From the IMG/VR virus record IMGVR_UViG_3300028887_000114, positions 6,588 through 70,587 of that record: 64,000 nt of DNA, one strand, 5' to 3'. Of this stretch, positions 30,118 through 51,464 are shown piece by piece. The DNA is from a virus. Lineage: Duplodnaviria; Caudoviricetes. Under the pieces are notes generated by a model. That model saw nothing but the letters and a program-made list of their open reading frames with translations, ran no database searches and was not told the DNA's origin. The position numbers and the translations under genes are program-made. Position 1 is the first letter of the stretch. Each line of letters starts with the position of its first letter.

Positions 30118-30864
30118 TTAAATACCAAAATTTTCTAAGAAATAATCAGGAAGCTTTGGATCGAAATGCGAAATACGGATAATTTCAAGTTTGAATTTAT
30201 TTCGTTTATACATATCGATAATTTTATCAGCGTGTTCGCCCTTAATACCCTTTCTAATAAGCTCATTAACTTCATGATAAGTAAATCCTAATTTATCCTC
30301 ATCAGTTAATGGTTGTAATCCATCAATAGGAATTTTATGTGTAAGTTCATAAGGCAAACCAAGATCATCACCGATTTCAATAACTTCTTCAGTAGTCAGC
30401 ATATCAAGTGGAGAAAAAGAACCAGCTGCATCACCAAATAATGTAGCATATCCGCAGCAATTTTCCGCCCTGTTGCATGTGTTAGCCATTAACCAATTAT
30501 TGGTCTGTGCTGTTACCATGATTTGATTCATTCTAATACGTGCTGGAACATTTGTCTTAGCATCATAAGACTTATCTGCGCCAGGAACAAGTGCTAAAGA
30601 TTCTTTAACAAGTGTTTCAATATCTTGAACATCATAATCAATACCTAGATGATCGACTAATTGGTAAGAGCAAGAAATATCCTTTTGAATACCACATGGA
30701 AGTAATACACCATGTACATGTTCTTTACCTAATGCTGCTACACAAATTGCTGCTACCACACTAGAATCTTTACCGCCAGAAATTCCAAGAACCGCGTCGG
30801 TTTTACCTACACGATTAAAAAAATCTCTAGTCCAGTCAATTACATCTTTTGTTAATGTATTCAT
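30118..30864 (-). CDS. nadE: NH3-dependent NAD+ synthetase
   Basis: 'LGISGGKDSSVVAA', 'NVPARIRM', 'TCNRAE..GYATLFGD', 'TDEDKLGFTY'. Confidence 0.95.
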   Translation of the reverse strand: MNTLTKDVIDWTRDFFNRVGKTDAVLGISGGKDSSVVAAICVAALGKEHVHGVLLPCGIQKDISCSYQLVDHLGIDYDVQDIETLVKESLALVPGADKSYDAKTNVPARIRMNQIMVTAQTNNWLMANTCNRAENCCGYATLFGDAAGSFSPLDMLTTEEVIEIGDDLGLPYELTHKIPIDGLQPLTDEDKLGFTYHEVNELIRKGIKGEHADKIIDMYKRNKFKLEIIRISHFDPKLPDYFLENFGI

Positions 30865-30936
30865 AATTTTTTCCTCATTTAAATTTTAAACTCATATTAT
30901 TAAAGATAGGAAAGAAAATTATGATGATATGTAAAA

Positions 30937-31086
30937 TTATTTTTTACCGTCATCACCCGTTTCAAACCAACGAAGCTCCTGAAGCTGCTTTCTAATATCA
31001 TTAATTGTATTTCTTTCCTTAACGATTACACCACCAACCAGTGTAATACCCAAAAGTGCCAGGATTGTTTTTAAAAATTTATTCAT
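30937..31086 (-). CDS. 49-aa single-TM protein (not in ORF track)
   Basis: MNKFLKTILALLGITLVGGVIVKERNTINDIRKQLQELRWFETGDDGKK; AAGGAG RBS; own promoter at 31116-31144. Confidence 0.7.
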   Translation of the reverse strand: MNKFLKTILALLGITLVGGVIVKERNTINDIRKQLQELRWFETGDDGKK

Positions 31087-31146
31087 TATATATCTCCTTA
31101 AAAAGTTCTGGCACAAATATAGTAAATTTTACTTAAATTGTAAACC

Positions 31147-31509
31147 TTACTTCTTTTTTAATAATTCTGTAAATTTATCAGCTAATTTACCAGCATCTGA
31201 TTTTTCTCTTTCCTGAAACATCGGATCAACTTTATTTTTAGGTGGAGTTGATTTTGCTTTAGGATAATGTTGCGGAAAATTACCTTTTGGATATTGTCTA
31301 GGATAATATGGATCAGCAATAAAAGCAGATGTACTACCATAACATTTTTCAATATGTTCAGATATTGCATCTATTTGGTTAGAAACTTTTTCAACACCTT
31401 TTTCAATTTCTTTCATATCATGTTCGAAATCGGTAGGTTTTAAAATTTTCCAACCCATACCTTCCATCATATTTTTTACTTCATCAACAGTCATATAGAG
31501 ATACCTCAT
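31147..31509 (-). CDS. hypothetical protein
   Basis: 120 aa, coupled to the upstream PARG gene. Confidence 0.6.
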   Translation of the reverse strand: MRYLYMTVDEVKNMMEGMGWKILKPTDFEHDMKEIEKGVEKVSNQIDAISEHIEKCYGSTSAFIADPYYPRQYPKGNFPQHYPKAKSTPPKNKVDPMFQEREKSDAGKLADKFTELLKKK

Positions 31510-32321
31510 CCTAGTATTTCTTTAAATACTTTGTAATTAGTATCATCCTTTCCACAATAGACAGCGAATTCAATATTCTTAAAGTAAATTTTTCCGATTT
31601 CCAAAGCTTTTTTATAAGCCTTAGCTACGATTTCAGGTGGATTTTTAAATGCACCACAGCCAAATGCACCGAGAATAATTGTTTCATTACCATGTGAATA
31701 AGCTAATTCAAAAATATGAACTGCTCTACGGAAATGAATGTTAAACAATTCTTCATTAGTAACGTCTGGCTTTTCGCCACGTTCATGGTTATATGCATTT
31801 GCAGGTGTTTCACGAAGATTAGGTGCTGCACAAGTAACTACATTTACAGAGAATGGACGATACAATAAATTATAATTATCTGACTTGATAATTTGAATAT
31901 TGGGTGTGTAAATTGCATCATGATTATGAAGTGCATTTCCATGTTCTTTATGCGGTTTATAAAAGATTTCATCAAACTTAGGGTCAGATAAAACATTATA
32001 AAGCGTAGAACAACGACAAAGACATTCTTCTTGTGCGTTAGAACCCTTTGTTACACCACCACCAGGATTTGTAGCAGAAGCAAAATTAAGAACTGCTACT
32101 TTGCCTGTATAATTTCTTGCTGCATTAAAAGTGCTATTCTTAGTGACCTTGACATTTCCTGGAGTTTTATTATCGCAGAAAATGTCCATTGTCATATCAG
32201 CAGCGAAGAAATCAGAATTTTCAATCGAATACTTAATAGAATCCTGTAAGGTTTTATCCTTACTAATTATTTCTTGAGTATGATTGAAAACTTTAATATT
32301 TTCTTCTTTGATATTAGCCAT
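31506..32321 (-). CDS. microbial-type poly(ADP-ribose) glycohydrolase (TIGR02452/DUF2263 macrodomain)
   Basis: 'VLNFASATNPGGGVTKGSNAQEECLCRCSTLY' (GGG-x-QEE catalytic motif); 'ILGAFGCGAFKNPP'. Confidence 0.9.
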   Translation of the reverse strand: MANIKEENIKVFNHTQEIISKDKTLQDSIKYSIENSDFFAADMTMDIFCDNKTPGNVKVTKNSTFNAARNYTGKVAVLNFASATNPGGGVTKGSNAQEECLCRCSTLYNVLSDPKFDEIFYKPHKEHGNALHNHDAIYTPNIQIIKSDNYNLLYRPFSVNVVTCAAPNLRETPANAYNHERGEKPDVTNEELFNIHFRRAVHIFELAYSHGNETIILGAFGCGAFKNPPEIVAKAYKKALEIGKIYFKNIEFAVYCGKDDTNYKVFKEILG

Positions 32322-32323
32322 AA

Positions 32324-32605
32324 TTAAGCCTTAAACATGTCATCACACTTTAAGAGCAAACGGTCAATCTTTGGTTGAATTCTCTTTTGGTTATACGGAT
32401 CATCACCAACAATGTCATTCTTGGTCCAGTTGCAAAGTCTTGCGATAATAAGGAACCAGAAGACGTTTGCGAGCGGTGACATAATAACATCAAGCATACT
32501 TGGATGGAACGGCACATGGTCCATTCTATGGCCAACATAGAGCGCAAGAAAGCCTGCTACGTAGAGTGCGATTGTTGTGATAATGATAGTAGTAATTGTT
32601 GTCAT
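32324..32605 (-). CDS. small membrane protein
   Basis: Two hydrophobic segments; promoter at 32638-32666. Confidence 0.65.
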   Translation of the reverse strand: MTTITTIIITTIALYVAGFLALYVGHRMDHVPFHPSMLDVIMSPLANVFWFLIIARLCNWTKNDIVGDDPYNQKRIQPKIDRLLLKCDDMFKA

Positions 32606-32680
32606 GTTATTTTTCCTTTAATTATAGTTTTTTATAAAATATAATAAAAAGCAGGGTCGTTGTCAACCCTTATTATGTTC

Positions 32681-32992
32681 TTATTTCCACTTAATGTCTT
32701 CAGTCTTAATTTTACTATCGCAATATTCTCGATAATGACGTTTGACTTCAATCGTGTCTTTTTCAGTATTTGGGTCGTCATCATTATTTAAATAATTAGC
32801 AAAATCAATCGCTTCTTGTTTTGTTTTAAATTCTCTACTATGAGGCCAACCTGACCAATCACCAGTCCATGGTTCTACTTGGTCCCAATAAACAAAGAAT
32901 GACTCATATGTTATATTGTTATAAAAATTTGCAGTTTTCTTAACTACTTTAACTGCCTCAGCCATAGCTGAATGACTATTTAATAAAATCAT
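32681..32992 (-). CDS. hypothetical protein
   Basis: 103-aa ORF with GAGG RBS. Confidence 0.6.
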   Translation of the reverse strand: MILLNSHSAMAEAVKVVKKTANFYNNITYESFFVYWDQVEPWTGDWSGWPHSREFKTKQEAIDFANYLNNDDDPNTEKDTIEVKRHYREYCDSKIKTEDIKWK

Positions 32993-33067
32993 AAAATACC
33001 TCTATAATAAAAAAGTGAGATTGTCGCCAACCTCACTTTGATTTTTATTTAGGAGAAATCCTTTTTA

Positions 33068-33718
33068 TTAGACACCCTTGTAAGCCTTGACGACTTCTTC
33101 GAATTCAGTGTCGAGAGCGACAGTTTCGATAGTCTGAGTGCCCTTACCACCCTTACCGGTGATTTCGGCAATTTCCTGCTTAGCTTCGATGTGGAACTGA
33201 GTGGTCTTAACTTCGCTTTCGATTTCAGCAATCATAGCGTTGCAATCGATACCGAAGTCACCGATCTTGTTACGGTCACACATCTTGAGTGTATCAATCT
33301 GGACCTGAAGAGCAGTAAGCTTAGCTTCGATGAGAGCCTTGTTAGTGTCGATGTTCTTGAGAGTATCGCGAACCTGGACACACTGCTTTTCAGTATTCTG
33401 CCAAGCAGTTTCAATGGTATCACGAGCAGTCTTCATGCCCTTATAAACAATATACTTAATCTTAGCTTCATCGAGCTTGTCAGCAGCGATGAGAGTTTCA
33501 TAGACCTTCTTGCTGGTGTTGGTCTTTTCGTCGAGTTCCTCGAACTTGGCCTTAAGTTCCTTGGCATTTACCAGCATATCTTCAGCCGACTTGATATACT
33601 GAGCGGCATTCTTATTATACTGATAACGGATTTCCTCAATCTTATCCTTGGTGGAGATGAGGCCTTCGAGACCACGCTGAGCCTTGTGAGCGAAGATTTT
33701 GAAGATATTGAAAGACAT
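33068..33718 (-). CDS. PspA/IM30-like coiled-coil protein
   Basis: 216 aa all-helical, amphipathic N-terminus, 'AADKLDEAK' and 'LDTEFEEV' in PspA-like positions. Confidence 0.6.
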   Translation of the reverse strand: MSFNIFKIFAHKAQRGLEGLISTKDKIEEIRYQYNKNAAQYIKSAEDMLVNAKELKAKFEELDEKTNTSKKVYETLIAADKLDEAKIKYIVYKGMKTARDTIETAWQNTEKQCVQVRDTLKNIDTNKALIEAKLTALQVQIDTLKMCDRNKIGDFGIDCNAMIAEIESEVKTTQFHIEAKQEIAEITGKGGKGTQTIETVALDTEFEEVVKAYKGV

Positions 33719-33818
33719 AGTTTTATTTCCTTATGTTAATTGTTGAATTGTTTAAATTGTTTTTGTTTATGTTTTAAATATAGTAAATTGTTTTTGGTTT
33801 GTAAACCCCTTTTTTAAA

Positions 33819-34070
33819 CTATCGTGCATTAAACTTGGTTAGGGTTTCGGAATTATCAGAATTAACTGACGAATCGAAATGCACGATTAGTTTAGATGGT
33901 TCGTAATTTACCGCCACCGGATTGGACATGTATAAATTAATGCTCTCAATCGACTTGGCGTTATTTACCATATCCTTTGGACCAGATAAATATGAACCAG
34001 TTAAATAAGTAACTGCTGCAATCGCAATAACCGCGACACTTGAAGCTACATACTTTATTGTTTTATTCAT
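33819..34070 (-). CDS. small exported/membrane-anchored protein
   Basis: N-terminal TM helix; promoter at 34111-34139. Confidence 0.65.
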   Translation of the reverse strand: MNKTIKYVASSVAVIAIAAVTYLTGSYLSGPKDMVNNAKSIESINLYMSNPVAVNYEPSKLIVHFDSSVNSDNSETLTKFNAR

Positions 34071-34159
34071 TAGTTTTCCTTGTTATTAACTGATTTGTTT
34101 TACATGATTAAATATAGTATTATTCAATGAAGTTGTAAACCCCCTTTTATAAAATATTT

Positions 34160-34591: not shown

Positions 34592-34605
34592 AAATAATCC
34601 TTTAA

Positions 34606-35103: not shown

Positions 35104-35111
35104 AATATTTC

Positions 35112-36232: not shown

Positions 36233-36241
36233 AATATCTCC

Positions 36242-36541: not shown

Positions 36542-36544
36542 AGT

Positions 36545-37054: not shown

Positions 37055-37068
37055 TATTGTGCTCCAGG

Positions 37069-38908: not shown

Positions 38909-39005
38909 TTTATTATCCTTTTTATTGTTTTACTTAATATAATATAGAAAAAAGAACCACTTTTGTAAATGGTTCTTTTTATAAATTATTTGTAAAATAT
39001 TATTA

Positions 39006-40229
39006 TTAGTGTTCGACACGCCACTTGATAGCGCCCTTCAGATTCTGATGATATTCTTCATTCTTACCCATGAACTTACCATCATCGTCAGAGACCTTAC
39101 AAACTGGAATGCCGTTAACTTCTGTCAACTTGATGACCTGGTTCATTGGATCAAACCAGCCAGTATCATTAAGCAACCAAGTACCGATACCGAATGCAAC
39201 CTTGCAGCGAAGAGCAAATCTGTCATGAATTACTTGTGCTTTATCGAAGTTCAAGCTATCACTAAACAAAAGTGTCTTGTTTGCATATGGAACGCCAATC
39301 TTCATATAATGTGCAAGCATCTTTTCACCCCAAACAATCGGATCTGCGGAGTCATGTCTAACACCGCTGAAAAGATTTGCATAAGTTTCAGTAAAGTCCT
39401 TCAAGAAGCAGTCTGTAGTAATACAGTCAGTAAGGTAAATACCGTTTTTAGTTCCGTATTCCTTAATCCAGTGCTTCATCATGTAAAGGTTAGAATATGC
39501 TGGATTGTGCTGAGGCAAGCCCTGTCCAACAAGTTCGATAGCTTCGTGTGCCATAGTTCCAACCGGCTTTGTGCCAAGCAAGAAACTGAAGTAAACGTTG
39601 GAAGTACCAACAAAGTTTGTGCCATTGAACTTGAACTGACTAATGTAACGAAGTGCCCATTCCTGGAATTCCTTACAGAATCTACGTCTTGTACCGAATT
39701 CAGAGAAAGCACCAATCTTGATTTCGCCTTTAAGAAGCTTGTCAACCTTTGCGATAAAGCGTTGCTTTGCATCTTCGATAATCTGCTTTTGCTGTTCTTC
39801 AGTATATGTCATTCTGAACCAAACTTCAGAAACAATAGACATAACCGGAACTTCATGATAAGAAACGTCAACATTGTAACCACGGAACTTAATATCCGGT
39901 TGCTGAAGTTTTTCATCATATGTACAGATAATTTCATCTCTGTCAATCGTATATCTCTTGAGGAACCGAACATAGTCGTTCTTCATGAAATCAATCAACT
40001 GGAAATGTTCAAGTTCCCATGGTGTATAACGAAGCTTAGAATAGAGATCAATCTGATAATTGATTTCGTCAATCATTTCCTTCGTAAACTTACGACCTGG
40101 GTCTCTGTTCTTGTAAGTCCATTCAACATACATGTCATGGAACTGGTGAACAAACATTTGACCCATTGTATACTTATAAAAATCGTTGTCGGTCAAATGC
40201 GTGATAATTTGTGGTAAATGCTTTGCCAT
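39006..40229 (-). CDS. pncB: nicotinate phosphoribosyltransferase
   Basis: 'TDNDFYKYTM', 'EFGTRRRF', 'GTSNV', 'GTMAHE', 'GVRHDSADP', 'FSDSL', 'FGIGT', 'KVSDDDGK'. Confidence 0.95.
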   Translation of the reverse strand: MAKHLPQIITHLTDNDFYKYTMGQMFVHQFHDMYVEWTYKNRDPGRKFTKEMIDEINYQIDLYSKLRYTPWELEHFQLIDFMKNDYVRFLKRYTIDRDEIICTYDEKLQQPDIKFRGYNVDVSYHEVPVMSIVSEVWFRMTYTEEQQKQIIEDAKQRFIAKVDKLLKGEIKIGAFSEFGTRRRFCKEFQEWALRYISQFKFNGTNFVGTSNVYFSFLLGTKPVGTMAHEAIELVGQGLPQHNPAYSNLYMMKHWIKEYGTKNGIYLTDCITTDCFLKDFTETYANLFSGVRHDSADPIVWGEKMLAHYMKIGVPYANKTLLFSDSLNFDKAQVIHDRFALRCKVAFGIGTWLLNDTGWFDPMNQVIKLTEVNGIPVCKVSDDDGKFMGKNEEYHQNLKGAIKWRVEH

Positions 40230-40249: not shown

Positions 40250-40606
40250 TTATTCAAAATATCCTTTGAGTTTATCAACATAGAAATTCAGCGGCTTATC
40301 TTCCTTATCCGCATTTTCCATGCATACATCATAAAGTTTCTGGTCAAAATACTTTGACTTCTTCTTGAAAACCATTTCATATAAGTCATTGAACATCTTA
40401 TAACGATGTTGCATACCTGAGTCAGCGACTTTTTCTGCCTTGACGATATGATAATCAAATGTACGTGCTAAAGCCTTCTGATCAGCCTTATGGATATATT
40501 GTGCACTTACTTCATACTGACCAGATGCAAGAAGCCTGCCAATATCTGAAACATATTTGTTACTAGGTGGGAAAAGTTTTAAAAGAAATTTCATTTTAGT
40601 CTCCAT
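40250..40606 (-). CDS. hypothetical protein
   Basis: First gene after the promoter at 40622-40650. Confidence 0.65.
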   Translation of the reverse strand: METKMKFLLKLFPPSNKYVSDIGRLLASGQYEVSAQYIHKADQKALARTFDYHIVKAEKVADSGMQHRYKMFNDLYEMVFKKKSKYFDQKLYDVCMENADKEDKPLNFYVDKLKGYFE

Positions 40607-40653
40607 TATTATTTTTATACAAATATAGTAAAAATAACCATTTTTGTAAATGG

Positions 40654-40872
40654 TTATTCTTTAATATTAATTTTGATTTGTGTTGCTAATGTTCTAATGA
40701 CAATATCTACATTTTCCCTAGTAACAGGTTTGTGTAGTTTTTTAACTACATCTTCTGCTAGGGTATAAATCTGCTGTTCAGTCGCACCATCTGCAACTGT
40801 TAGCAAATCGGTCCAAATGTTTGTAAGATCATTTAGACCATCTGTATTATATTTGTCAGGAATATTAGGCAT
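40654..40872 (-). CDS. small hypothetical protein (start uncertain)
   Basis: ATG overlaps the pncA stop; MPNIPDKYNT... Confidence 0.5.
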   Translation of the reverse strand: MPNIPDKYNTDGLNDLTNIWTDLLTVADGATEQQIYTLAEDVVKKLHKPVTRENVDIVIRTLATQIKINIKE

Positions 40873-41452
40873 TGATAACATCAATCTGTTGACGTTGGAG
40901 GCAAAGAATTGCAGCCTTCTGACCAGCTTCATCAAGGTCAGCAATGCAGCTTGCATCGACAGTAATCTTCATGTTCGGGAAAGCAGCTCTTAAAATAACC
41001 GCATTTGCAAGAACACAGATTGTACTTACAAAACCCCAAATTTCGATTTCATCGAATTCAATTCCAAGTTTTCTAATATAATCCGGAAGATCAAGCTTAC
41101 CGAATGTATACTTATCTACAGAGAAGAAATTATGCTTACCATCTTGGTTCTTCTTTTCAAGTTCTGCAAGAATAGTTGCTTCAATTTCCCAACCTGGAGT
41201 AAGCTTGATACAGTGTGGAACTGGAAGCTTTTGACCTTCCAAAGTTTCTTCATACGGCTTACCTTCAAGTGGAGGCCAACCAGTAGTAACCTGAAACTTA
41301 TTAAAATGAGTATCGTGCGTAGCAATGATAGCACCATCCCAGTGCTTAATCTTGTTAACAATATTAGGAACCTTTGCTTGTGCGAATTTGTTTTCAAGTG
41401 CGCCAGTGATAAAATCTACTTGTGCATCAACTAAAATACCGAGTTTTGCCAT
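40865..41452 (-). CDS. pncA: nicotinamidase (isochorismatase-like family)
   Basis: 'VDAQVDFITGAL', 'THDTH', 'HC...GWEI', 'KYTFG', 'GFVSTICV' (Asp-Lys-Cys triad, metal-binding His). Confidence 0.88.
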   Translation of the reverse strand: MAKLGILVDAQVDFITGALENKFAQAKVPNIVNKIKHWDGAIIATHDTHFNKFQVTTGWPPLEGKPYEETLEGQKLPVPHCIKLTPGWEIEATILAELEKKNQDGKHNFFSVDKYTFGKLDLPDYIRKLGIEFDEIEIWGFVSTICVLANAVILRAAFPNMKITVDASCIADLDEAGQKAAILCLQRQQIDVINA

Positions 41453-41476: not shown

Positions 41477-42121
41477 CTATTTATTTTCTGTTTCTTTATA
41501 AAGTTTCAAGAATTCTCTCGAAATAAAATTTGTGTGAATACGTTTTTCTTCAAAAGGTTTATCCTGACCGTGAACTGCAACATGCATATTATATGCTAAT
41601 CTACGCATACATTGTAAACCTTCTTTATCATGTTCAAGTTCTTCTGGAAAATCTCCATGCACTTCATTCCAATACTGACTTCCTACGACAGTCATGGAAT
41701 GCATGAGAAAGTAAGAATTTAAATGTGCAAATGCTAGTTCATTTCCTGCTCGTCTCGAAACGGTTATTCCTGCTGCATACTTATTACGCATAACAGCTGC
41801 TGCAGAATAAAATACACGAGACATAAAATTTGCAAGCTGACCAGTAATACCAGCATAGTAAACTGGAGATGCAAAAATAAAACCATCGGCTTTCTGTGCT
41901 TTTTCAATAAATCGATTAACTAAATCATTATCAAAAACACAATGACCAAGTTTCTGGTTTTTACAGGCATTACAACAAATGCAACCGTTCATTTGTGTTC
42001 CTAACCACATATTATCGATTACATTGTCTCCGAGAATTTTAAATTCTTCTTCGACTTCGTGTAATGCCCTAGCAGTACAACCGTCACGGTGTGGACTACC
42101 ATTTACCATTAAGATATTCAT
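41477..42121 (-). CDS. flavodoxin-fold NAD(P)H-dependent FMN reductase / iron-sulfur flavoprotein
   Basis: 'NGSPHRDGCT', 'CICCNAC...C', 'ASPVYYAG', 'RRAG'. Confidence 0.88.
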   Translation of the reverse strand: MNILMVNGSPHRDGCTARALHEVEEEFKILGDNVIDNMWLGTQMNGCICCNACKNQKLGHCVFDNDLVNRFIEKAQKADGFIFASPVYYAGITGQLANFMSRVFYSAAAVMRNKYAAGITVSRRAGNELAFAHLNSYFLMHSMTVVGSQYWNEVHGDFPEELEHDKEGLQCMRRLAYNMHVAVHGQDKPFEEKRIHTNFISREFLKLYKETENK

Positions 42122-43074
42122 TACTTTTCTGCCTCAAGTGCAATCAAAGAATTACCACAAGTAATACGGTCTGCATCTTCTTCATGCGACGGGATGAAAA
42201 CAATAACCTGCCAACCTGCATCAACGAGCGGCTTTTCAAACTTATCGTAAACATCGAAATCAAATTCAGAACTAAAGTTATTTGCTGCTGCAGCTTCAGT
42301 TGCATGGATAGGAGTAATCTTGACAATAAAACGTTCCTTATCAAAATACTTATCCATGAGTGCTGGGTCAAGATTGCACTTACTAGTTACAGCAAAGTTC
42401 AATGTATACTTTCTGCCTGCTGGAGGAGGAAGACGCTTTGCTAAATCCGAAATTTCCTGCAAACTCAACGACTGGTTATTAAACATATCGTTTCTATCAG
42501 CTTCATCAAGCGTATTGATAGAGAATTGAAGACCAATACCACCGTTCCACTTTGCTTCATAACCAAGAGCACACCAGTCTTGTAGGAATGCTTCAAGCTT
42601 CTTGTTGTTATTCGGAAGCATAGTAGAAACAACCGGATGATATTCCTTGAACCAGTTATTGGAAATCATACCAATATCGTGAGCAACCTTAATTACGTTT
42701 AGATTCCAAGTCGGTTCACCCATTCTTGCAAAGTGAACATTAAGTCTTTCACCTTTGGTAATCTTAGAGAACGCAATACCGTTAATGATTTCAGACATCA
42801 ATTCAAAATAAGGAACATTTCCTCTAAATTTGAACTTAGGACAGTCACAGAATTTACAGGATTCAAGACAACCCTTTTGAGTTGATACAGTAACGACCAA
42901 CTTATCTGCTACGTCGACAGGCTTATGAACGACCTTTTCGATTCTTTTGGTATAACCTAAGAAATCTGCCTTAATGTTATTTTCTTTACCATAATCGCCT
43001 ACATAAAGATACTCCAAATTAAGGTCAGTATCAGAAACGATCATGCCAGTATGTGTTTGAGTTATTGTTCTCAT
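42121..43074 (-). CDS. RlmN/Cfr-like radical SAM enzyme
   Basis: 'VSTQKGCLESCKFC', 'FARMGEPTWN', C-terminal 'ITCGNS'. Confidence 0.8.
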   Translation of the reverse strand: MRTITQTHTGMIVSDTDLNLEYLYVGDYGKENNIKADFLGYTKRIEKVVHKPVDVADKLVVTVSTQKGCLESCKFCDCPKFKFRGNVPYFELMSEIINGIAFSKITKGERLNVHFARMGEPTWNLNVIKVAHDIGMISNNWFKEYHPVVSTMLPNNNKKLEAFLQDWCALGYEAKWNGGIGLQFSINTLDEADRNDMFNNQSLSLQEISDLAKRLPPPAGRKYTLNFAVTSKCNLDPALMDKYFDKERFIVKITPIHATEAAAANNFSSEFDFDVYDKFEKPLVDAGWQVIVFIPSHEEDADRITCGNSLIALEAEK

Positions 43075-43087
43075 TTATTATTCTCCA

Positions 43088-43159
43088 TTAAAAAGCGAAT
43101 GCTAAAAATTTAAAAATTTCTTCCCATGTAATGGTAACTAATTCTTCATCTGTAAACAT
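43088..43159 (-). CDS. 23-aa peptide MFTDEELVTITWEEIFKFLAFAF (not in ORF track)
   Basis: GGAG RBS and promoter at 43175-43203; the stop abuts the RBS of the radical SAM gene. Confidence 0.5.
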   Translation of the reverse strand: MFTDEELVTITWEEIFKFLAFAF

Positions 43160-43237
43160 GGTTAATCTCCTTCAAATATAAAAAAATAGACCGCTTTTGT
43201 AAGCGGTCCTTAATTGTTAAATGTGGTAAAAAATTAT

Positions 43238-43315
43238 TTACAATATACTAACAACCACAAACCGCGGTGACGATTTGTATGATGATGAATAGTTGTAAGT
43301 ATTATTGATAAACAT
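43238..43315 (-). CDS. 25-aa peptide MFINNTYNYSSSYKSSPRFVVVSIL (not in ORF track)
   Basis: GAGG RBS 6 nt upstream; fills an otherwise empty intergenic gap. Confidence 0.35.
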   Translation of the reverse strand: MFINNTYNYSSSYKSSPRFVVVSIL

Positions 43316-43341
43316 TTGTTTCCTCTGTCTTATATATAATT

Positions 43342-43830
43342 TTATTTTTCGTTATTTTGCAAAATTTCCTCAAGCTTATGTAATACTTCTTTATATGTCG
43401 TATAAAGAATAGCATTGCTTCCAGCTTTTACGAAATCATCGCAATTTTCTGGTTTATCGTCGATTAATAAACGATTTGGTTTTGCATGTTCGACTTTATG
43501 GAAAGAACGGTCACAAATAATAACATTTTCCTGATTTATTTCAGGACAGTTACATTCTAGCCAATATCTTTTTCCTCTTTTACCAGAATTAAAATAAATT
43601 GCAGAAAGAATACCAAGCTTAAAATTATACTTTTTCTGTAATTCAAGCACACCGAGATAAAGATCATGTCCTTCTACCAGCCATGGCATATCAATCCAGA
43701 ACTTGGCACCGATTTTATGAATCTTATCCCAATTCGCTTTACCCGTCTGTTTTCGGGCGTTGTAAAAATCGACCTGATAATCCCAGTTCGTTAATACACC
43801 GTCCATATCTAAATAAATTTCATTAATCAT
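43342..43830 (-). CDS. HAD-family 5'(3')-deoxyribonucleotidase-like protein
   Basis: 'IYLDMDGVL', 'GKRYWL', 'LLIDDKPEN'. Confidence 0.85.
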   Translation of the reverse strand: MINEIYLDMDGVLTNWDYQVDFYNARKQTGKANWDKIHKIGAKFWIDMPWLVEGHDLYLGVLELQKKYNFKLGILSAIYFNSGKRGKRYWLECNCPEINQENVIICDRSFHKVEHAKPNRLLIDDKPENCDDFVKAGSNAILYTTYKEVLHKLEEILQNNEK

Positions 43831-44822
43831 AGTGTAGAAATGTTTAAAAGTTCAGAAATTGTTTCTTGTCCAGTTATTTTATGGAAGTTTTCTCTAGGCA
43901 TATCTACAGAAATGCTTACTTCCATTTTTGGCAAATCTATGTAAATGTCAGGAACGATGATATTGCCAACAGTATCACGTTTCTTAATTCCTTCAATATT
44001 ATAAATTGATGTTGATGGAACGTCAAACAAATGTAATACTCTTGCAGGATTAACTTGTTTAAGACCAAGAATATCAAAATTTATAATCTTGCACATACTA
44101 TGCAATGCTGGAATTTTCTTTTGTAACCATGAAATATTCTTTTCAATCGGTTTCTTATACTTTTCGAAAAGTTCTGCACCACGACCGGTATTTTTAAAAC
44201 CTTGAATCAAAACTCTTCTTCCTTGTAAAGCAGGCAGGTCATGCTTATTAAGAATTCCAGCAATTACATGTATAACGACTCTATCTCCAAGTTTATCAAT
44301 GAATTTAAAATCTTCCTTGCAATGTGCGTCATGCAATGTAATTCCAAGACCATAAATGAGCTGTTCATCGATTAATTTCTTAATAAGGTCTTTATTTTCC
44401 TTAATATGAACTTGATTAATATTAAGGTTAGTAATAATTCCTCTTGCCTTAAGAATTTCCAGAATAGTTATAAGCTGTGGATGTGCTAAAGGATTTCCAC
44501 CAGTAATATTAACTTCAAGACCAGGATAGAAAGAATTAATCATAGGCAACAGTTTTGACAAATCTGCATGTTTTGTTGCACTGTTACTTCCTTCTGAACA
44601 GAACTGACAACCTGCATTACAGAAATCTGTAATTTTTATAGTTATATTCTCTGGCATTTCATAAATGAAATTTTCAGAATCAGTTTCAACCCAACGGCTA
44701 ATTCTTTTGCCATCGTTTGCTGTTTCGCTAATATAGTAACCAGTTTCTTTGACTTTCGTACCATCAGTATAAATAGTGGTGCGATGATTGCCATTTATAT
44801 AACTACTTATAATATTATTCAT
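43827..44822 (-). CDS. radical SAM protein
   Basis: 'KITDFCNAGCQFCSE', 'ITGGNPL'. Confidence 0.85.
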   Translation of the reverse strand: MNNIISSYINGNHRTTIYTDGTKVKETGYYISETANDGKRISRWVETDSENFIYEMPENITIKITDFCNAGCQFCSEGSNSATKHADLSKLLPMINSFYPGLEVNITGGNPLAHPQLITILEILKARGIITNLNINQVHIKENKDLIKKLIDEQLIYGLGITLHDAHCKEDFKFIDKLGDRVVIHVIAGILNKHDLPALQGRRVLIQGFKNTGRGAELFEKYKKPIEKNISWLQKKIPALHSMCKIINFDILGLKQVNPARVLHLFDVPSTSIYNIEGIKKRDTVGNIIVPDIYIDLPKMEVSISVDMPRENFHKITGQETISELLNISTL

Positions 44823-44844
44823 AAAAATACCTTATTTTAATTCA

Positions 44845-44882
44845 AATATAGTAAAAATAATTTAATCTGTAAACTATAAATA
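44845..44882. promoter_or_regulatory. back-to-back early (minus) and late (plus) promoters
   Basis: TTTACA-17-TATATT at 44845-44873 (minus); TATAAATA at 44875-44882 (plus). Confidence 0.7.
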
Positions 44883-44912
44883 ATATAAAATGATAAAAAA
44901 TTTGAGGATTTT

Positions 44913-45560: not shown

Positions 45561-45577
45561 TATAAAATACAGATTTG

Positions 45578-45617
45578 AAAAAACCAGTCAGTAATGGCTG
45601 GTTTTTTATTATAAATA
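45578..45617 (+). terminator. terminator followed directly by late promoter TATAAATA (45610-45617)
   Basis: AAAAACCAGTC-agtaat-GGCTGGTTTTTT. Confidence 0.75.
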
Positions 45618-45645
45618 ATATAAAGAAAATTAATTGAGAGGAAAT

Positions 45646-47382: not shown

Positions 47383-47433
47383 TTAATCTCAATTAATATA
47401 AGAAAGGCGGCAAATTAATTGCCGTCTTTTTTA

Positions 47434-48756
47434 TTAATATGTTTTAGCAAATGCCATATAACCTAAGTAAGCGTTATAAATGTCATTTACATGTGCTAGT
47501 TCCAAAGGCGAATGCATATTCAGAATAGGAACACCAGCATCAAGAACATTAATATTCAGTTCACAAACCATGCTTGCGATTGTTCCGCCACCGCCAACAT
47601 CAACCTTGCCAAGACTATCAAACTGATACTTGATACCTGCATCCTTCATAATCCTTCTAACATAAGCGATAAATTCAGGATTTGCGTCAGCACCGCCAGA
47701 CTTACCACGACCTCCGTTATACTTGGAGAACATGATACCACCATTTAACTTAGCAGAAGACTTCTTATCATAAGCATCTGCATAAAGCGGGTCATAAGCT
47801 GCAGTAACATCAGAAGAAAGCATACCAGAACGTGCAAGAATTGTTGCAAATTCAACTTCATCCTTAGGTCTTGTCATACAACGCAATACATCTTCAAACC
47901 ATCTTGATTTTGCTCCTGTAGCGCAGCAAGAACCAATTTCTTCCTTATCTACTAATACAACACCTGCTGTAACATCTGGGGTCTCTGTGAGGTCCAGAAT
48001 GGCCATTAATGACGTATATGCACAAACTCTATCGTCTTGACCGTAACCAGCAACCAAAGATTTATCAAAACCAGAATATCTAGCTCTTCCAGCTGGGACA
48101 ATTTCAAGTTCAGAAGAAACTAAATCTTCTTCTTCAATATTATACTTTTCCTTAAGGAACTTCAAAACCCATTCCTTAACCTTCTTCTTATCTTTATCTT
48201 CAGTTTCAAGTTCTGTTGTTGCTACGAGAATATCAAGCTTTTCACCATTAATAAAGTCACTTGCCTTCTTTTCTGCAAGCTTTTTATCAAGATGCGGAAG
48301 AAGGTCACAAATACAGAAAATCGGGTCATCTGGATCTTCACCAATAGAAATATTAACTTTACCACCATCAATAAGACAAACAACGCCATGGATTGCAAGC
48401 GGAGTAGTTGTCCACTGATACTTTTTAATACCGCCATAATATTGCGTATCAAAATAAGCAATTCCATCGCTTTCATATAATGGCTTCTGTTTAACATCAA
48501 TTCTAGGTGCATCAATATGTGCGCCAAGAATATTTACTGCATTATTTGCTTTACCGACAATAAATGCAGCAAAATTTTTATTTTTATTTTTAAAATAAAA
48601 TTTATTGCCTGGTAATAAAATACCGTCGTCATGTTTATATGGTCTAAAACCTGCCTTAATTGCAAGTTTTTCGGCTTCATCAACGCAAATACGTTCAGTC
48701 TTTGCAGTGGAAATAAAATCAATATAATTTTTAATAAAAGTTTCTTGTGTAGTCAT
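47434..48756 (-). CDS. M18 family (aspartyl) aminopeptidase
   Basis: 'GAHIDAPR', 'YYGGIKKYQW', 'GQDDR', 'DKEEIGS', 'SSDV', 'MHSP'. Confidence 0.92.
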   Translation of the reverse strand: MTTQETFIKNYIDFISTAKTERICVDEAEKLAIKAGFRPYKHDDGILLPGNKFYFKNKNKNFAAFIVGKANNAVNILGAHIDAPRIDVKQKPLYESDGIAYFDTQYYGGIKKYQWTTTPLAIHGVVCLIDGGKVNISIGEDPDDPIFCICDLLPHLDKKLAEKKASDFINGEKLDILVATTELETEDKDKKKVKEWVLKFLKEKYNIEEEDLVSSELEIVPAGRARYSGFDKSLVAGYGQDDRVCAYTSLMAILDLTETPDVTAGVVLVDKEEIGSCCATGAKSRWFEDVLRCMTRPKDEVEFATILARSGMLSSDVTAAYDPLYADAYDKKSSAKLNGGIMFSKYNGGRGKSGGADANPEFIAYVRRIMKDAGIKYQFDSLGKVDVGGGGTIASMVCELNINVLDAGVPILNMHSPLELAHVNDIYNAYLGYMAFAKTY

Positions 48757-48822
48757 AGTAATATTAAATATAAAAAAATAACGGGTTTTGTAAACCCGTT
48801 ATGATTAATTTGTTGAAAATTA

Positions 48823-50067
48823 TTATGCGTTGTCCTTGAAGTCCTTAGCAAAGTTTTCAAACAATGCAGTAAGATGTTCTTCAGTCAAACCAAGCTTAAA
48901 TACTGGCTTATAAGTATCATAGAATTCCTGAAGCGTATGTGCATTAAATGGCTTATCGGTATCAGTCTTATAATGAGTATTCAAACGTGTCATTGCGGTT
49001 CTGCAGATATTGCTGACAACAGACGAACTTGGAGAACCAACTGCATCGCCGATAACACCACCGTTTCTGAAAATTCTTGGATTGTCGCTAAAGTATTTCT
49101 TGACAATTTCCTTAACTTTCAATGCATAACTAGAACCATTACGTAATGGAATTTGAATGGTTGTTGGAATTTCATTTTCGATGAGTGCAGTAACTTCTTC
49201 AGAAATGCGACGTGCGTCAGAGCTTAAGAATGCACGGCATTCTTCGACACTTGGCAATGTTTCCATTTGAGCATTATTTCTGAAAAAGTCAAGAACTGTT
49301 GTATTAACACTAGCCCAGTTTGTTTCGATATTGTTTGCTAACAATAGCTTTGCATTTTCTGGTTCTTCCTGAATGAACAATGCAAGCTTATATGCAAGTT
49401 CTTCAGACATCTTTGGCTTTTCTTCTGCAGAAAGATTTGGATTTCTAATAACGTGACACAAGTCAAACCACTGGTCAGCCAATGCATATTTAGAACTCTT
49501 ATATTCTTCTTGCGGCATAGTCCAACGAAGAATATCACGTTTGATGTTCTTATAAGTCTTGGCACCGAATCTATCCAAAGCTTCTTCTGGATTATGCTGG
49601 AACCAATCAATAAACTCAGCAAGGTTCAACTGGTCATAAGCGTCTTGTGCACTTGTATATTGCTTAGTGGTTTTATGACGGAATGCCATACCCTTATCAT
49701 AATAATTTCTATCAATATCGTCCTTATTACGTTCAACTGTTCTTTCAATTCTTGCGAAAAGCTTATGATATGAACTTGCGTTAAACTTACGAACAAGCTC
49801 ACTCCAAGAAATGCTACTTAAATCAATGTCGAGTCTATCATTGATTAAAGCAACATAGTTATCCCAATCAAAACTATTCTGAATAATATAGTTTTTCAAT
49901 GAAGCTTTTTGACGATCTGTTTGACCTTTATCAGCAATTAATTCATTAAGTGCCTTATCAGTAAGATAAAATTGTTTCTTTTCAGGTGAAAGTTTGTCGT
50001 AAATACGACGATATGCATTCTTTGCCATTTCAGTAATATATCTTCTTCTATTAGAGAACAAGCTCAT
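48823..50067 (-). CDS. late hypothetical protein (candidate internal head protein)
   Basis: Late promoter at 50095-50102; N-terminus MSLFSNRRRYITE. Confidence 0.7.
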   Translation of the reverse strand: MSLFSNRRRYITEMAKNAYRRIYDKLSPEKKQFYLTDKALNELIADKGQTDRQKASLKNYIIQNSFDWDNYVALINDRLDIDLSSISWSELVRKFNASSYHKLFARIERTVERNKDDIDRNYYDKGMAFRHKTTKQYTSAQDAYDQLNLAEFIDWFQHNPEEALDRFGAKTYKNIKRDILRWTMPQEEYKSSKYALADQWFDLCHVIRNPNLSAEEKPKMSEELAYKLALFIQEEPENAKLLLANNIETNWASVNTTVLDFFRNNAQMETLPSVEECRAFLSSDARRISEEVTALIENEIPTTIQIPLRNGSSYALKVKEIVKKYFSDNPRIFRNGGVIGDAVGSPSSSVVSNICRTAMTRLNTHYKTDTDKPFNAHTLQEFYDTYKPVFKLGLTEEHLTALFENFAKDFKDNA

Positions 50068-50153
50068 ATAATCTCCTTGTAATTTACTTTATATTATTTA
50101 TAATAAAAAATGAGAGAAATAATCCCTCATTTATTATAAAAAATACAGAAGTA

Positions 50154-50345
50154 TTAGAGATTATCAGCTATAATTTCTTCTGATTTTTCTTCTAGTTTGC
50201 GTTCTGCCTCAACTGCTTGAATTTTTTGATCAGTAACTACATCTGTGTCAAATCTGTCAATATGCATAATTGCACGTTTAAGTTCTTCTACAGGGAAATT
50301 AGAAATCATTTCACCCAATTGAGGTTTTGTCTTTTCGTTATCCAT
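50154..50345 (-). CDS. small hypothetical protein
   Basis: 63-aa ORF after nadD-Nudix. Confidence 0.55.
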   Translation of the reverse strand: MDNEKTKPQLGEMISNFPVEELKRAIMHIDRFDTDVVTDQKIQAVEAERKLEEKSEEIIADNL

Positions 50346-50357
50346 ATTAATTATTTA

Positions 50358-51464
50358 TTACTGTTTTAAAGCATCTTCGATAATTGTGCCATGATGGAAA
50401 CCAAGTTTTGGCAAATTATCAAGCTTAAACCAGCCTACATCTGCAGCATCGTCACCAGCAATAACTTTTTTCTTATCCTTGCCAGGAACATGAACAACAA
50501 ATGCAGTATCAATAATACGAAGTCGCGGATCAAACATATGGCTATATGTTTTAATCTGACTAAACTTTTCTACTGGAATATTAAGACCAGCTTCTTCTCT
50601 AAATTCTCTTTGTGCTGCATGTTCAAGATCAGCATCTGGTTTTTCCATCAAACCAGTTTCCTTATTTTTAAATGCAGAATGATTAAAGAATCCACCAGGA
50701 GTACACCAGTGACCCATGAAAGGCGGTTTCTTTCTACGAATCAAAAGAACTTCATCACCAGAAATTGCACAAATATCTACAGTATTTGCAAATGCGCCCC
50801 AACCCTGCTTCTTGTAGTTTTCAACCCATTTCTTTTCCAAATCTGCATAATTGGTCGGATTCTGGTTATACAAACAAGTAGAAACAATTTCATTCTTTGC
50901 ATTAAGTGTTCCTTCATGCTTAATGACATTGAAAACTACTTTGCTAATATATTTCTGAACATCCTTATAATGGCAATCCGGATTAGTTCTAAATATTTCT
51001 CTAACAGCACTGCTAGAAACATCCCAGTTTTTAACATTATTAACAACTGTGCAATTTGCTTGCTTATATGCAATTTCCTCAGTTCCTCTTGCAAAAACAA
51101 GGAAATTATAAGTAGTCAATAAACGATTACTGTATAACCATTTACCTGCCACAAGGCTTCGCCATTCATCGTCACCCATAACAATAGTAATATCCTTAGG
51201 GTCATATTGTCTATACTTAACCCAAAGATATTCATGCATTCTATTTGTCTGAATGTCAATATCATATTTAACATTCTTAGATGCTAATGCAGCAGTAACC
51301 ATTTGCTTACGAAATTCTACTGGGGTGCGATTAGTCTTTTCATCATTATCTGTAACAAGAATATGAAGCTTATCACCTGCTCTCATCTTTTTCTTGACAG
51401 TCTTAATGATTTCTTCATGTCCATGCGTAAACGGATCAAACCAGCTTCCAAAAATATAATGCAT
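50358..51464 (-). CDS. nadD: bifunctional nicotinate-mononucleotide adenylyltransferase / ADP-ribose pyrophosphatase (Nudix)
   Basis: 'FGSWFDPFTHGH', 'MGDDEW..L..W', 'VSSSAVR'; C-terminal 'PGGF...AQREFREEAGL', 'DPR', 'AGDDA'. Confidence 0.85.
   Translation of the reverse strand: MHYIFGSWFDPFTHGHEEIIKTVKKKMRAGDKLHILVTDNDEKTNRTPVEFRKQMVTAALASKNVKYDIDIQTNRMHEYLWVKYRQYDPKDITIVMGDDEWRSLVAGKWLYSNRLLTTYNFLVFARGTEEIAYKQANCTVVNNVKNWDVSSSAVREIFRTNPDCHYKDVQKYISKVVFNVIKHEGTLNAKNEIVSTCLYNQNPTNYADLEKKWVENYKKQGWGAFANTVDICAISGDEVLLIRRKKPPFMGHWCTPGGFFNHSAFKNKETGLMEKPDADLEHAAQREFREEAGLNIPVEKFSQIKTYSHMFDPRLRIIDTAFVVHVPGKDKKKVIAGDDAADVGWFKLDNLPKLGFHHGTIIEDALKQ

What the first reader, a model, noticed from the sequence alone, without database searches (positions are those of the whole stretch)
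30118..51464. Complete phage-encoded deamidating (Preiss-Handler) NAD+ rebuilding pathway: candidate third NARP-type anti-defence route
Seen: pncA (40865-41452), pncB (39006-40229), a NadD-like adenylyltransferase fused to an ADP-ribose Nudix hydrolase (50358-51464) and nadE (30118-30864), all with intact catalytic motifs. pncA, pncB and nadD-Nudix sit downstream of sigma70-type early promoters. Established: Sir2/TIR/SEFIR defences (Thoeris, DSR, SEFIR and others) cleave NAD+ to nicotinamide plus ADPR. The described phage counter-pathways NARP1 (Adps + Namat) and NARP2 (Nampt + Nmnat, as in vibriophage KVP40 NadV/NatV) both use the amidated route. Inference: this phage runs Nam -> NA -> NaMN -> NaAD -> NAD+, with the Nudix domain recycling ADPR to ribose-5-P + AMP. 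This is a chemically different four-enzyme solution. It is spread over about 21 kb, so cluster-based mining would miss it.
Basis: partly seen in the sequence, partly recalled or inferred. Interest (0 to 1): 0.9.

Follow-up and report, generated by a model that had tools for sequence, protein, structure and literature searches.

The report
Gut megaphage NAD+ salvage genes
A fragment of a roughly 415-kb gut or rumen phage carries all the enzymes needed to rebuild NAD+ from nicotinamide by the "deamidated" route. The genes are real and conserved, but this gene set and its possible anti-defence role in giant phages were already described in 2024, by computer analysis only.

Summary
**Observation: confirmed.** Four intact minus-strand genes sit at the stated coordinates.
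- nadE: NAD_synthase family, scores above the TIGR00552 cut-off.
- pncB: scores above both NAPRTase curated cut-offs.
- pncA-type nicotinamidase: its family profile and its AlphaFold model both match solved nicotinamidases first, and the catalytic and metal-binding residues are conserved.
- An adenylyltransferase-Nudix fusion: the N-domain is NadD-type rather than NadM-type, and the Nudix domain belongs to the ADP-ribose-binding NadM/NrtR group.

**Context.** The window is part of a 70.6-kb fragment of a megaphage. Three complete or near-complete relatives (411-424 kb) all carry the four genes. In other relatives the genes form a compact cluster (L019: 5.6 kb, one strand). Two cultured jumbo phages, Sinorhizobium phage Phosso and Agrobacterium phage Atu_ph07, carry analogous sets.

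**Interpretation: partly supported.** The Preiss-Handler reading is well supported by homology and gene neighbourhood. The anti-defence role is untested.

**Novelty is weaker than claimed.**
- "NARP3" already names a different system, PnuC plus NadR (Sci Adv 2026).
- A 2024 Microbiome paper reported gut jumbo phages with complete Preiss-Handler pathways (pncB, nadD, nadE) and proposed counter-defence against NAD+ depletion.

What remains modestly new is the virus-specific NadD-type/Nudix fusion and the inclusion of pncA. Verdict: a new member of a known kind, of moderate to low interest.

The parts
30118..30864 (-). nadE: single-domain, ammonia-type NAD+ synthetase (248 aa)
   Evidence: PF02540 at 8e-45 and TIGR00552 at 151.6 bits, above its cut-off. 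SGGKDS PP-loop present. Best solved match is P. horikoshii NadE 2e18 at 6e-28. 80-86% identical copies in G001-G003 and G005.
31116..31144 (-). Promoter-like motif TTTACA-N17-TATATT heading the unit of a small membrane-peptide ORF plus nadE
   Evidence: Motif family occurs 14 times against 0.54 expected. Sequence read directly.
31506..32321 (-). Microbial-type PARG (ADP-ribose glycohydrolase) gene; associated, releases ADP-ribose
   Evidence: PF10021 at 3.9e-34. Conserved in G001-G003 and G005, but not always near nadE.
39006..40229 (-). pncB: nicotinate phosphoribosyltransferase (407 aa)
   Evidence: TIGR01514 at 336.7 and NF003704 at 395.2, both above their curated cut-offs; NAPRTase_N and NAPRTase domains found. 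It is the only PF04095-family gene in the contig and in each complete relative.
40250..40606 (-). 118-aa ORF of unknown function, first gene of the pncB transcription unit
   Evidence: No Pfam hit. It lies between the promoter motif and pncB.
40622..40650 (-). Composite hairpin and promoter-like motif (TTTACA in the hairpin loop, then ACTATATT) upstream of the pncB unit
40865..41452 (-). pncA: nicotinamidase (195 aa)
   Evidence: Isochorismatase domain at 1e-11. Family profile hits nicotinamidases 1ilw, 3s2s, 2wt9, 2h0r and 3pl1. AlphaFold model pLDDT 92.5, and the top 13 fold matches are nicotinamidases. Catalytic D9/K114/C146 and metal-binding D47/H49/H80 are conserved.
41477..42121 (-). FMN_red-type flavoprotein gene directly upstream of pncA (24-nt gap), probably co-transcribed
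   Evidence: PF03358 at 2.2e-24. This neighbour is also kept next to pncA in L002 and L003.
50895..51464 (-). NadD-type (NaMN) adenylyltransferase domain of the fusion protein (residues 1 to about 190)
   Evidence: TxGH and VSSSAVR motifs. Profile hits S. aureus NadD 2h29 at 4e-8 and P. falciparum NaMNAT 5llt at 7e-8, with no NadM at E<=1. Fold matches to NadD 1kaq, 3e27 and 2h2a, TM 0.75-0.77.
50358..50852 (-). Nudix hydrolase domain of the fusion protein (residues about 205-368), ADP-ribose-binding NadM/NrtR type
   Evidence: PF00293 at 1.9e-14. Nearest solved relatives are 2fml, 2qjo (NadM-Nudix) and 3gz8 (NrtR Nudix bound to ADP-ribose). R286, E287, E290 and E291 are invariant in the family.
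51485..51513 (-). Promoter-like site CTGACA-N17-TATATT with TG extension, 21 nt upstream of the fusion gene's ATG

Best explanation
The window belongs to a roughly 415-kb gut or rumen megaphage that encodes a complete deamidated (Preiss-Handler type) NAD+ salvage pathway.

**Proposed steps**
1. PncA deamidates nicotinamide to nicotinate.
2. PncB makes NaMN from nicotinate, PRPP and ATP.
3. The NadD-type domain of the fusion protein adenylates NaMN to NaAD.
4. The ammonia-type NadE amidates NaAD to NAD+.
5. The fused Nudix domain most likely splits ADP-ribose into AMP and ribose-5-phosphate. The host's own PRPP synthetase can return ribose-5-phosphate to the pathway, because the phage has none.

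**Net effect.** NAD+ is kept up in the infected cell. This serves phage NAD+ consumers, such as the NAD-dependent DNA ligase found in the complete relatives. It would also buffer any NAD+ loss, including loss caused by NADase defences.

**Shown:** gene presence, family membership, conserved catalytic residues, co-occurrence and clustering.
**Inferred:** every substrate specificity, the flux, the timing and the biological purpose.
For: - Family assignments with curated cut-offs passed for pncB and nadE.
- Nicotinamidase identity from profile, fold and conserved triad plus metal site.
- NadD-type N-domain. Nudix domain of the ADP-ribose group with an intact catalytic box.
- All four genes present in 3 of 3 complete or near-complete relatives of 411-424 kb.
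- Compact same-strand cluster nadD-Nudix, pncB, pncA, three small ORFs, nadE in L019. Contiguous pncB-pncA-nadE in L014. Adjacent pncB-nadE in five more loci.
- Independent recurrence in cultured jumbo phages. Phosso has a cluster of nadE, pncB, Nudix, adenylyltransferase and an isochorismatase-family hydrolase. Atu_ph07 has an adjacent adenylyltransferase and ADP-ribose pyrophosphatase with pncB 3 kb away.
- The complete relatives have no second NAPRTase or NAMPT-family gene and no PRPS-like gene, so no NARP1 or NARP2 route competes with this one.
- An NAD-dependent ligase domain is present in all three relatives.
- Three of the four genes lie behind a strongly over-represented promoter motif or a close variant of it.
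- Published parallel: PMC11662467.
Against: - No enzyme activity has been measured.
- The adenylyltransferase domain scores below every NCBIfam curated cut-off, so its NaMN preference rests on its nearest relatives only.
- The NadE belongs to the short subgroup that also contains the Francisella NMN synthetase (3fiu, 3e-20).
- The Nudix substrate is inferred.
- PRPP supply depends on the host.
- The window's contig is only about 17% of a genome, so other NAD genes may lie outside it. The closest relative, G001, also has a PnuC-like transporter.
Confidence: 0.7

Rival explanations
1. Dedicated counter-defence. The module's main selective value is to rebuild NAD+ from the two products of Sir2/TIR/SEFIR NADases (nicotinamide through PncA, ADP-ribose through Nudix). 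That would make it a fourth, deamidating NARP-type pathway.
For: - It takes in both NADase products.
- The domain architecture mirrors the Nmnat-Nudix enzyme of the NARP2 type.
- A PARG-type ADP-ribose hydrolase is conserved in the same phages.
- Sigma-70-like promoters suggest host-polymerase, possibly early, expression.
- The module is conserved and repeatedly clustered in unrelated jumbo phages.
- The same idea is put forward in PMC11662467.
Against: - No experiment supports it, here or in the searched literature.
- The host and its defences are unknown.
- The route costs more ATP and has more steps than NARP1-3.
- It needs host PRPP synthetase.
- These phages carry many other metabolic genes and NAD+ consumers, so general supply explains the genes equally well.
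Confidence: 0.35
2. Francisella-type order of steps. NadE acts as an NMN synthetase (NaMN -> NMN), and the adenylyltransferase then converts NMN to NAD+.
For: - The short single-domain NadE matches the Francisella enzyme 3fiu at 3e-20.
- An adenylyltransferase-Nudix architecture is also what Francisella NadM has (2qjt is the top full-length fold hit).
- The route is documented in PMC3376133.
Against: - The N-domain is NadD-type, not NadM-type. NadD enzymes prefer NaMN (established knowledge).
- The NadE is closer to the archaeal type (2e18, 6e-28). The characterised archaeal member, M. jannaschii NADS, used NaAD and showed no appreciable NMN synthetase activity.
Confidence: 0.1
3. The genes do not form one pathway. 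For example, the Nudix fusion could act on other dinucleotides or on ADP-ribose-derived immune signals, and the isochorismatase-like protein could hydrolyse another amide.
For: - Substrates are inferred only.
- In this window the genes are spread over 21 kb, in four transcription units.
- The adenylyltransferase domain is below the curated cut-offs.
Against: - Tight clustering of the same four genes in relatives and in Phosso.
- A nicotinamidase-specific metal site and matching folds.
- pncB and nadE pass their curated (equivalog-type) cut-offs.
Confidence: 0.08

Closest known systems
'NAD-jumbo phages' with a Preiss-Handler pathway (Microbiome 2024, PMC11662467; for example the Kuafu_71 pncB-nadD-nadE cluster)
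   Same: - Gut or rumen phages of more than 200 kb.
- A complete deamidated route from phage genes.
- Phage pncA is mentioned.
- NAD-dependent ligase and other NAD+ consumers are present.
- Counter-defence against NAD+ depletion is proposed.
   Different: - That work is computational only, and in the passages I read it does not describe the NadD-type/Nudix fusion or the pncA step as part of the pathway.
- I could not check whether this very clade is among their genomes.
- In this window the genes are dispersed rather than clustered.
NARP2 (Nampt + Nmnat; vibriophage KVP40 NadV/NatV type)
   Same: Starts from nicotinamide. Uses a phage adenylyltransferase fused to an ADP-ribose-type Nudix domain. 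Needs PRPP.
   Different: - It is the amidated two-step route through NMN.
- No Nampt is present here: the only PF04095-family gene passes the NAPRTase equivalog cut-off.
- The adenylyltransferase domain here is NadD-type, not NadM-type.
- Two extra enzymes, PncA and NadE, are needed.
NARP1 (Adps + Namat)
   Same: Would also reuse ADP-ribose and nicotinamide.
   Different: NARP1 uses ADP-ribose directly, through ADPR-pyrophosphate. The relatives have no PRPS-like Adps and no second NAMPT-like gene. Here ADP-ribose would be broken down to AMP and ribose-5-phosphate.
NARP3 (PnuC + NadR; Sci Adv 2026, PMC13464706)
   Same: Phage-encoded NAD+ restoration. The closest complete relative, G001, also has a PnuC-like gene.
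   Different: NARP3 imports nicotinamide riboside and phosphorylates and adenylates it. It shares no enzyme with the set described here. The name 'third NARP' is therefore already taken.
Bacterial Preiss-Handler / pyridine nucleotide cycle (PncA, PncB, NadD, NadE)
   Same: Same four enzyme families and the same predicted chemistry.
   Different: It is phage-encoded. NadD is fused to a Nudix hydrolase; all 30 nearest ESM Atlas clusters with this architecture are viral. NadE is the short ammonia-type form.
Sinorhizobium phage Phosso and Agrobacterium phage Atu_ph07 NAD gene sets (GenBank annotations)
   Same: Cultured jumbo phages of 469 and 490 kb with pncB, nadE, an adenylyltransferase and an ADP-ribose-type Nudix. 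Phosso also has an isochorismatase-family hydrolase in the same cluster.
   Different: The proteins are only about 27-28% identical to those in the window. The adenylyltransferase and Nudix are separate adjacent genes rather than a fusion. The hosts are Alphaproteobacteria.

Membership tests
Nicotinamidase (PncA; isochorismatase-like hydrolases) | Isochorismatase-like fold, closest to solved nicotinamidases | tested here: met
   AlphaFold model pLDDT 92.5. The top 13 Foldseek PDB matches are nicotinamidases, with TM 0.65-0.79. The family profile's top hits are also nicotinamidases.
Nicotinamidase (PncA; isochorismatase-like hydrolases) | Asp-Lys-Cys catalytic triad, plus the Asp/His/His metal site (DxH and PxHC motifs) that sets nicotinamidases apart | tested here: met
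   D9, K114 and C146, and D47, H49 and H80, are present and invariant or at least 90% conserved in 27 homologues. The residue equivalences were read by eye against known motifs.
Nicotinamidase (PncA; isochorismatase-like hydrolases) | Hydrolyses nicotinamide to nicotinate | not testable with these tools
   Needs an enzyme assay.
Nicotinate phosphoribosyltransferase (PncB) | Scores above the curated equivalog cut-off; both N-terminal and catalytic domains present | tested here: met
   TIGR01514 at 336.7 against 269.55. NF003704 at 395.2 against 379. PF17767 plus PF04095.
NaMN adenylyltransferase (NadD) | (H/T)xGH and ISSTxxR nucleotidyltransferase motifs | tested here: met
   T13-H-G-H16 and V-S-S-S-A-V-R155 are present. 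H16, S150, S151 and R155 are invariant in 29 homologues.
NaMN adenylyltransferase (NadD) | Closer to NadD than to NadM or NadR by sequence profile and fold | tested here: met
   Profile A3 hits 2h29 at 4e-8 and 5llt at 7e-8, with no NadM at E<=1. Single-domain fold matches 1kaq, 3e27 and 2h2a have TM 0.75-0.77.
NaMN adenylyltransferase (NadD) | Scores above the curated family cut-off | tested here: not met
   TIGR00482 scores 50.1 bits against a cut-off of 112.45, and all NF0008xx models are below their cut-offs. This is a divergent, virus-specific branch.
NaMN adenylyltransferase (NadD) | Prefers NaMN over NMN | not testable with these tools
   Needs kinetics.
Bifunctional NadM-Nudix (NatV/NARP2-type Nmnat) | Adenylyltransferase followed by an ADP-ribose Nudix domain in one chain | tested here: met
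   Pfam architecture. The best full-length fold hits are 2qjt and 2qjo.
Bifunctional NadM-Nudix (NatV/NARP2-type Nmnat) | NadM-type adenylyltransferase domain; curated cut-off passed | tested here: not met
   NF003786 scores 59.9 against 397. The N-domain profile finds no NadM structure. The full-length superposition has an rmsd of about 16 A.
ADP-ribose pyrophosphatase (Nudix) | Intact Nudix catalytic box, with nearest relatives that bind ADP-ribose | tested here: met
   R286, E287, E290 and E291 are invariant. Nearest solved relatives are 2fml, 2qjo and 3gz8 (NrtR Nudix with ADP-ribose). The substrate itself was not tested.
Ammonia-dependent NAD+ synthetase (NadE) | PP-loop SGGxDS, single synthetase domain without a glutaminase domain, curated cut-off passed | tested here: met
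   SGGKDS motif, 248 aa, TIGR00552 at 151.6 against 63.65. The full-length equivalog models NF010587 and NF001979 are below their cut-offs.
Ammonia-dependent NAD+ synthetase (NadE) | Uses NaAD rather than NaMN (that is, it is not an NMN synthetase) | tested here: inconclusive
   The best match is the archaeal-type 2e18 (6e-28), but the Francisella NMN synthetase 3fiu also matches at 3e-20.
NARP-type anti-defence pathway | Phage-encoded enzymes that rebuild NAD+ from NADase products and rescue the phage from NAD+-depleting defences | not testable with these tools
   Phage origin and the predicted chemistry are supported. Rescue has not been tested anywhere in the searched literature.
NARP1 / NARP2 / NARP3 specifically | Adps + Namat; Nampt + Nmnat; PnuC + NadR | tested here: not met
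   No PRPS-like gene. The only NAPRTase/NAMPT-family gene is pncB. No PnuC in the window's contig; one in relative G001 only.
'NAD-jumbo phage' (PMC11662467) | Phage genome over 200 kb encoding at least one complete NAD+ synthesis pathway | tested here: met
   The own contig is a 70.6-kb fragment (CheckV 17%). Relatives with the same four genes, at about 50-94% protein identity except G001's pncB at 38%, are 411-424 kb, two of them with terminal repeats.

The most novel reading that the evidence does not exclude
The PncA, PncB, NadD~Nudix and NadE set is a genuine fourth, deamidating NAD+ reconstitution pathway. It recycles both NADase products: nicotinamide directly, and ADP-ribose through ribose-5-phosphate and host PRPP synthetase. 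It is built around a virus-specific NadD-type/Nudix fusion and measurably overcomes Sir2/TIR NADase defences.
Probability: 0.35. Interest if true: 0.6.

Novelty: new member of a known kind. Interest (0 to 1): 0.3.

Why it matters
NAD+ depletion is a widespread bacterial defence, and three phage NAD+ restoration pathways have so far been shown by experiment. If the deamidated route also rescues phages, then phages exploit every bacterial salvage chemistry, not only the short amidated routes. NAD+-targeting defences would then be easier to evade than thought, especially for giant gut phages.

The practical value of this window is limited, because the phage is uncultured and the idea is already in print. 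The useful additions here are:
- a clear statement of which enzyme type each gene is, notably NadD-type rather than NadM-type;
- evidence from gene neighbourhood in relatives that the four genes form one unit;
- two cultured phages, Phosso and Atu_ph07, in which the hypothesis could be tested.

Tried and rejected
- **Megablast of the pncB-pncA region against GenBank phages:** no match. Only distant protein-level relatives exist there.
- **Generic sigma-70 promoter scan:** at chance level, so it was not used as evidence. A specific motif was tested instead.
- **Sorci et al. 2009 (PMC2651253), wanted for NMN-synthetase determinants:** not held. The NaAD versus NaMN question stays open.
- **Scan of bacterial genomes with a pncB alignment, to find a donor or host:** it returned only one rumen MAG contig at 42% identity, labelled Ruminococcus sp. 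RUG13235. That is not enough to name a host.
- **tRNA scan of the window:** none found.
absent from the contig and from three complete relatives.
- **AAA_28 (NadR-kinase-like) search:** it found only weak hits, 29-36 bits, to small P-loop kinases. I do not read these as NadR.
- **Bacterial contamination of the contig:** rejected. It is an IMG/VR virus record, relatives have direct terminal repeats, and most large ORFs lack any Pfam or PHROG family.

Full report
**1. What is in the sequence**

- **nadE.** Pfam gives NAD_synthase at 8e-45. It passes TIGR00552 and carries the SGGKDS PP-loop.
- **pncB.** Pfam gives NAPRTase_N plus NAPRTase. It scores above the curated cut-offs of both TIGR01514 (336.7 against 269.55) and NF003704 (395.2 against 379).
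- **pncA-like.** Pfam gives Isochorismatase at 1e-11.
- **Fusion.** Pfam gives CTP_transf_like plus NUDIX.

**2. The two less certain enzymes**

*The isochorismatase-family protein.* It has no NCBIfam hit, so I tested it further.
- A profile of 27 homologues finds solved nicotinamidases first: P. horikoshii 1ilw, S. mutans 3s2s, A. baumannii 2wt9, yeast Pnc1 2h0r and M. tuberculosis 3pl1.
- An AlphaFold model with pLDDT 92.5 has nicotinamidases as its 13 best Foldseek matches.
- The catalytic Asp, Lys and Cys (D9, K114, C146) and the Asp/His/His metal site (D47, H49, H80) are present and conserved.

I accept it as a nicotinamidase.

*The fusion protein.* Its model has pLDDT 89.8.
- Over its full length it resembles the NadM-Nudix enzymes of Francisella and Synechocystis. 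The rmsd is about 16 A, so only the architecture is shared.
- The N-domain alone matches bacterial NadD at TM 0.75-0.77.
- A profile of the N-domain hits S. aureus NadD and P. falciparum NaMNAT, with no NadM at E<=1.
- The domain scores below every curated cut-off, so it is a divergent NadD-type branch.
- The Nudix domain is nearest to ADP-ribose-binding Nudix domains: 2fml, the NadM-Nudix 2qjo, and the NrtR domain 3gz8 solved with ADP-ribose. Its catalytic box is invariant in the family.
- All 30 nearest ESM Atlas clusters with this architecture are viral.

**3. What the element is**

The window is 64 kb of a 70.6-kb IMG/VR contig with no terminal repeats, estimated at 17% complete.

Relatives include two complete genomes with direct terminal repeats, G001 (415,750 bp) and G002 (424,163 bp), and one at 98% completeness, G003 (411,059 bp). 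Many homologues sit on contigs of up to 463 kb.

A bacterial-genome scan returned only a rumen MAG contig. Together with the sample context of the published work, this points to a gut or rumen megaphage. I could not assign a host.

**4. Do the genes belong together?**

- All four genes are present in all three complete or near-complete relatives.
- In this window they span 21 kb, but elsewhere they are clustered.
  - L019 has nadD-Nudix, pncB, pncA, three small unknown ORFs and nadE on one strand within 5.6 kb.
  - L014 has pncB, pncA and nadE contiguous.
  - Five further loci have pncB next to nadE.
- Unrelated cultured jumbo phages repeat the pattern.
  - Sinorhizobium phage Phosso has nadE, pncB, a Nudix gene, an adenylyltransferase and an isochorismatase-family hydrolase within about 6 kb.
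  - Agrobacterium phage Atu_ph07 has an adenylyltransferase adjacent to an ADP-ribose pyrophosphatase, with pncB 3 kb away and nadE elsewhere.

Conserved neighbourhood in shuffled orders is good evidence for one functional unit.

**5. What else bears on function**

- The complete relatives have no PRPS-like gene and only one NAPRTase/NAMPT-family gene. NARP1 (Adps, Namat) and NARP2 (Nampt) are therefore absent, and PRPP must come from the host.
- All three carry an NAD-dependent DNA ligase domain.
- G001 also has a PnuC-like transporter.
- A microbial-type PARG lies two genes upstream of nadE and is conserved in the relatives, though not always nearby.

**6. Promoters**

- The generic sigma-70 scan is at chance level.
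- The motif TTTACA-N16-18-TATAWT occurs 14 times against 0.54 expected. Twelve copies are on the coding (minus) strand; the ones I read directly lie between genes.
- It heads the nadE unit and the pncB unit. A close variant with a TG extension heads the fusion gene.
- pncA follows the FMN-reductase-like gene after 24 nt and has no promoter of its own.
- That these promoters are early ones is an inference by analogy with T4-like phages.

**7. Mechanism**

The best reading is the canonical deamidated route: PncA, then PncB, then the NadD domain, then NadE. The Nudix domain would turn ADP-ribose into AMP and ribose-5-phosphate.

The main mechanistic rival is the Francisella order, NaMN to NMN to NAD+. 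It cannot be excluded, because the NadE is of the short type and also matches the Francisella enzyme.

That rival is made less likely by two things:
- the N-domain is NadD-type;
- the NadE is closer to archaeal NadE, whose characterised member is NaAD-specific.

**8. Comparison with the literature**

- NARP3 is already published as PnuC plus NadR (PMC13464706).
- PMC11662467 reports 174 of 668 gut jumbo phages with complete salvage or Preiss-Handler pathways. It shows a pncB-nadD-nadE cluster, mentions phage pncA, and proposes that phage NAD+ synthesis counters NAD+-depleting defence, pending experiments.
- I found no paper that tests the deamidated route experimentally.

**9. Verdict**

The pathway interpretation is well supported, while the anti-defence role is plausible but untested.

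The novelty claim does not hold as written. This is a new member of the published class of NAD-synthesising jumbo phages.

Two smaller points appear to be undescribed in the papers I read: the virus-specific NadD-type/Nudix fusion, and the explicit nicotinamidase entry step.

Interest is moderate to low.

Noticed in passing
window, 14 sites (e.g. 24152-24180, 33777-33805, 38941-38969, 44845-44873, 48767-48794, 54719-54747): A promoter-like motif, TTTACA-N16-18-TATAWT (mostly ...TTTACTATATT), occurs 14 times against 0.54 expected. Twelve copies are on the minus (coding) strand. In several, the TTTACA sits in the loop of a terminator-like hairpin, which gives a composite terminator and promoter cassette.
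   Followed up: partly
window 31506-32321 (-): A microbial-type PARG (ADP-ribose glycohydrolase) gene, PF10021 at 3.9e-34. It is conserved in all relatives tested but is not always near nadE.
   Followed up: partly
G001:C1:175681-176844 versus window 39006-40229: In the closest complete relative the neighbouring NAD genes are 86-93% identical to the window's, but its pncB is only 38% identical. The pncB gene appears to have been replaced by a different copy within the clade.
   Followed up: no
G001:C1:405146-405673: The closest complete relative also carries a PnuC-like nicotinamide riboside transporter (PF04973 at 1e-34). It is absent from G002 and G003. All three have small AAA_28-type kinases, but the hits are weak.
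   Followed up: partly
window 28751-29968 (-): A GIY-YIG / NUMOD homing-endonuclease gene lies immediately downstream of nadE. Such mobile genes may help explain why the NAD genes are rearranged between relatives.
   Followed up: no
window 24526-25878 (-) and 51503-52582 (-): An RNA ligase gene (phrog_968) and a Metallophos plus P-loop kinase (AAA_33) gene look like a T4-style RNA repair pair. The second sits directly upstream of the nadD-Nudix gene.
   Followed up: no
window 47434-48756 (-) and 54751-55866 (-): An M18 aminopeptidase (PF02127 at 2.6e-88) and an M16 insulinase-type peptidase. Both are unusual cargo for a phage.
   Followed up: no
window 41477-44822 (-): An FMN_red flavoprotein and two radical-SAM-like genes lie upstream of pncA. 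The flavoprotein stays next to pncA in L002 and L003 (96% identical), so it may be functionally linked.
   Followed up: partly
window 30937-31087 (-): A small ORF with a good ribosome-binding site encodes a peptide with one predicted membrane helix. It lies between the promoter motif and nadE.
   Followed up: no
L019:11916-13390 (+): Three small ORFs (152, 161 and 174 aa) with no Pfam family sit inside the compact NAD cluster of a relative, between pncA and nadE. They could be unrecognised pathway components.
   Followed up: partly
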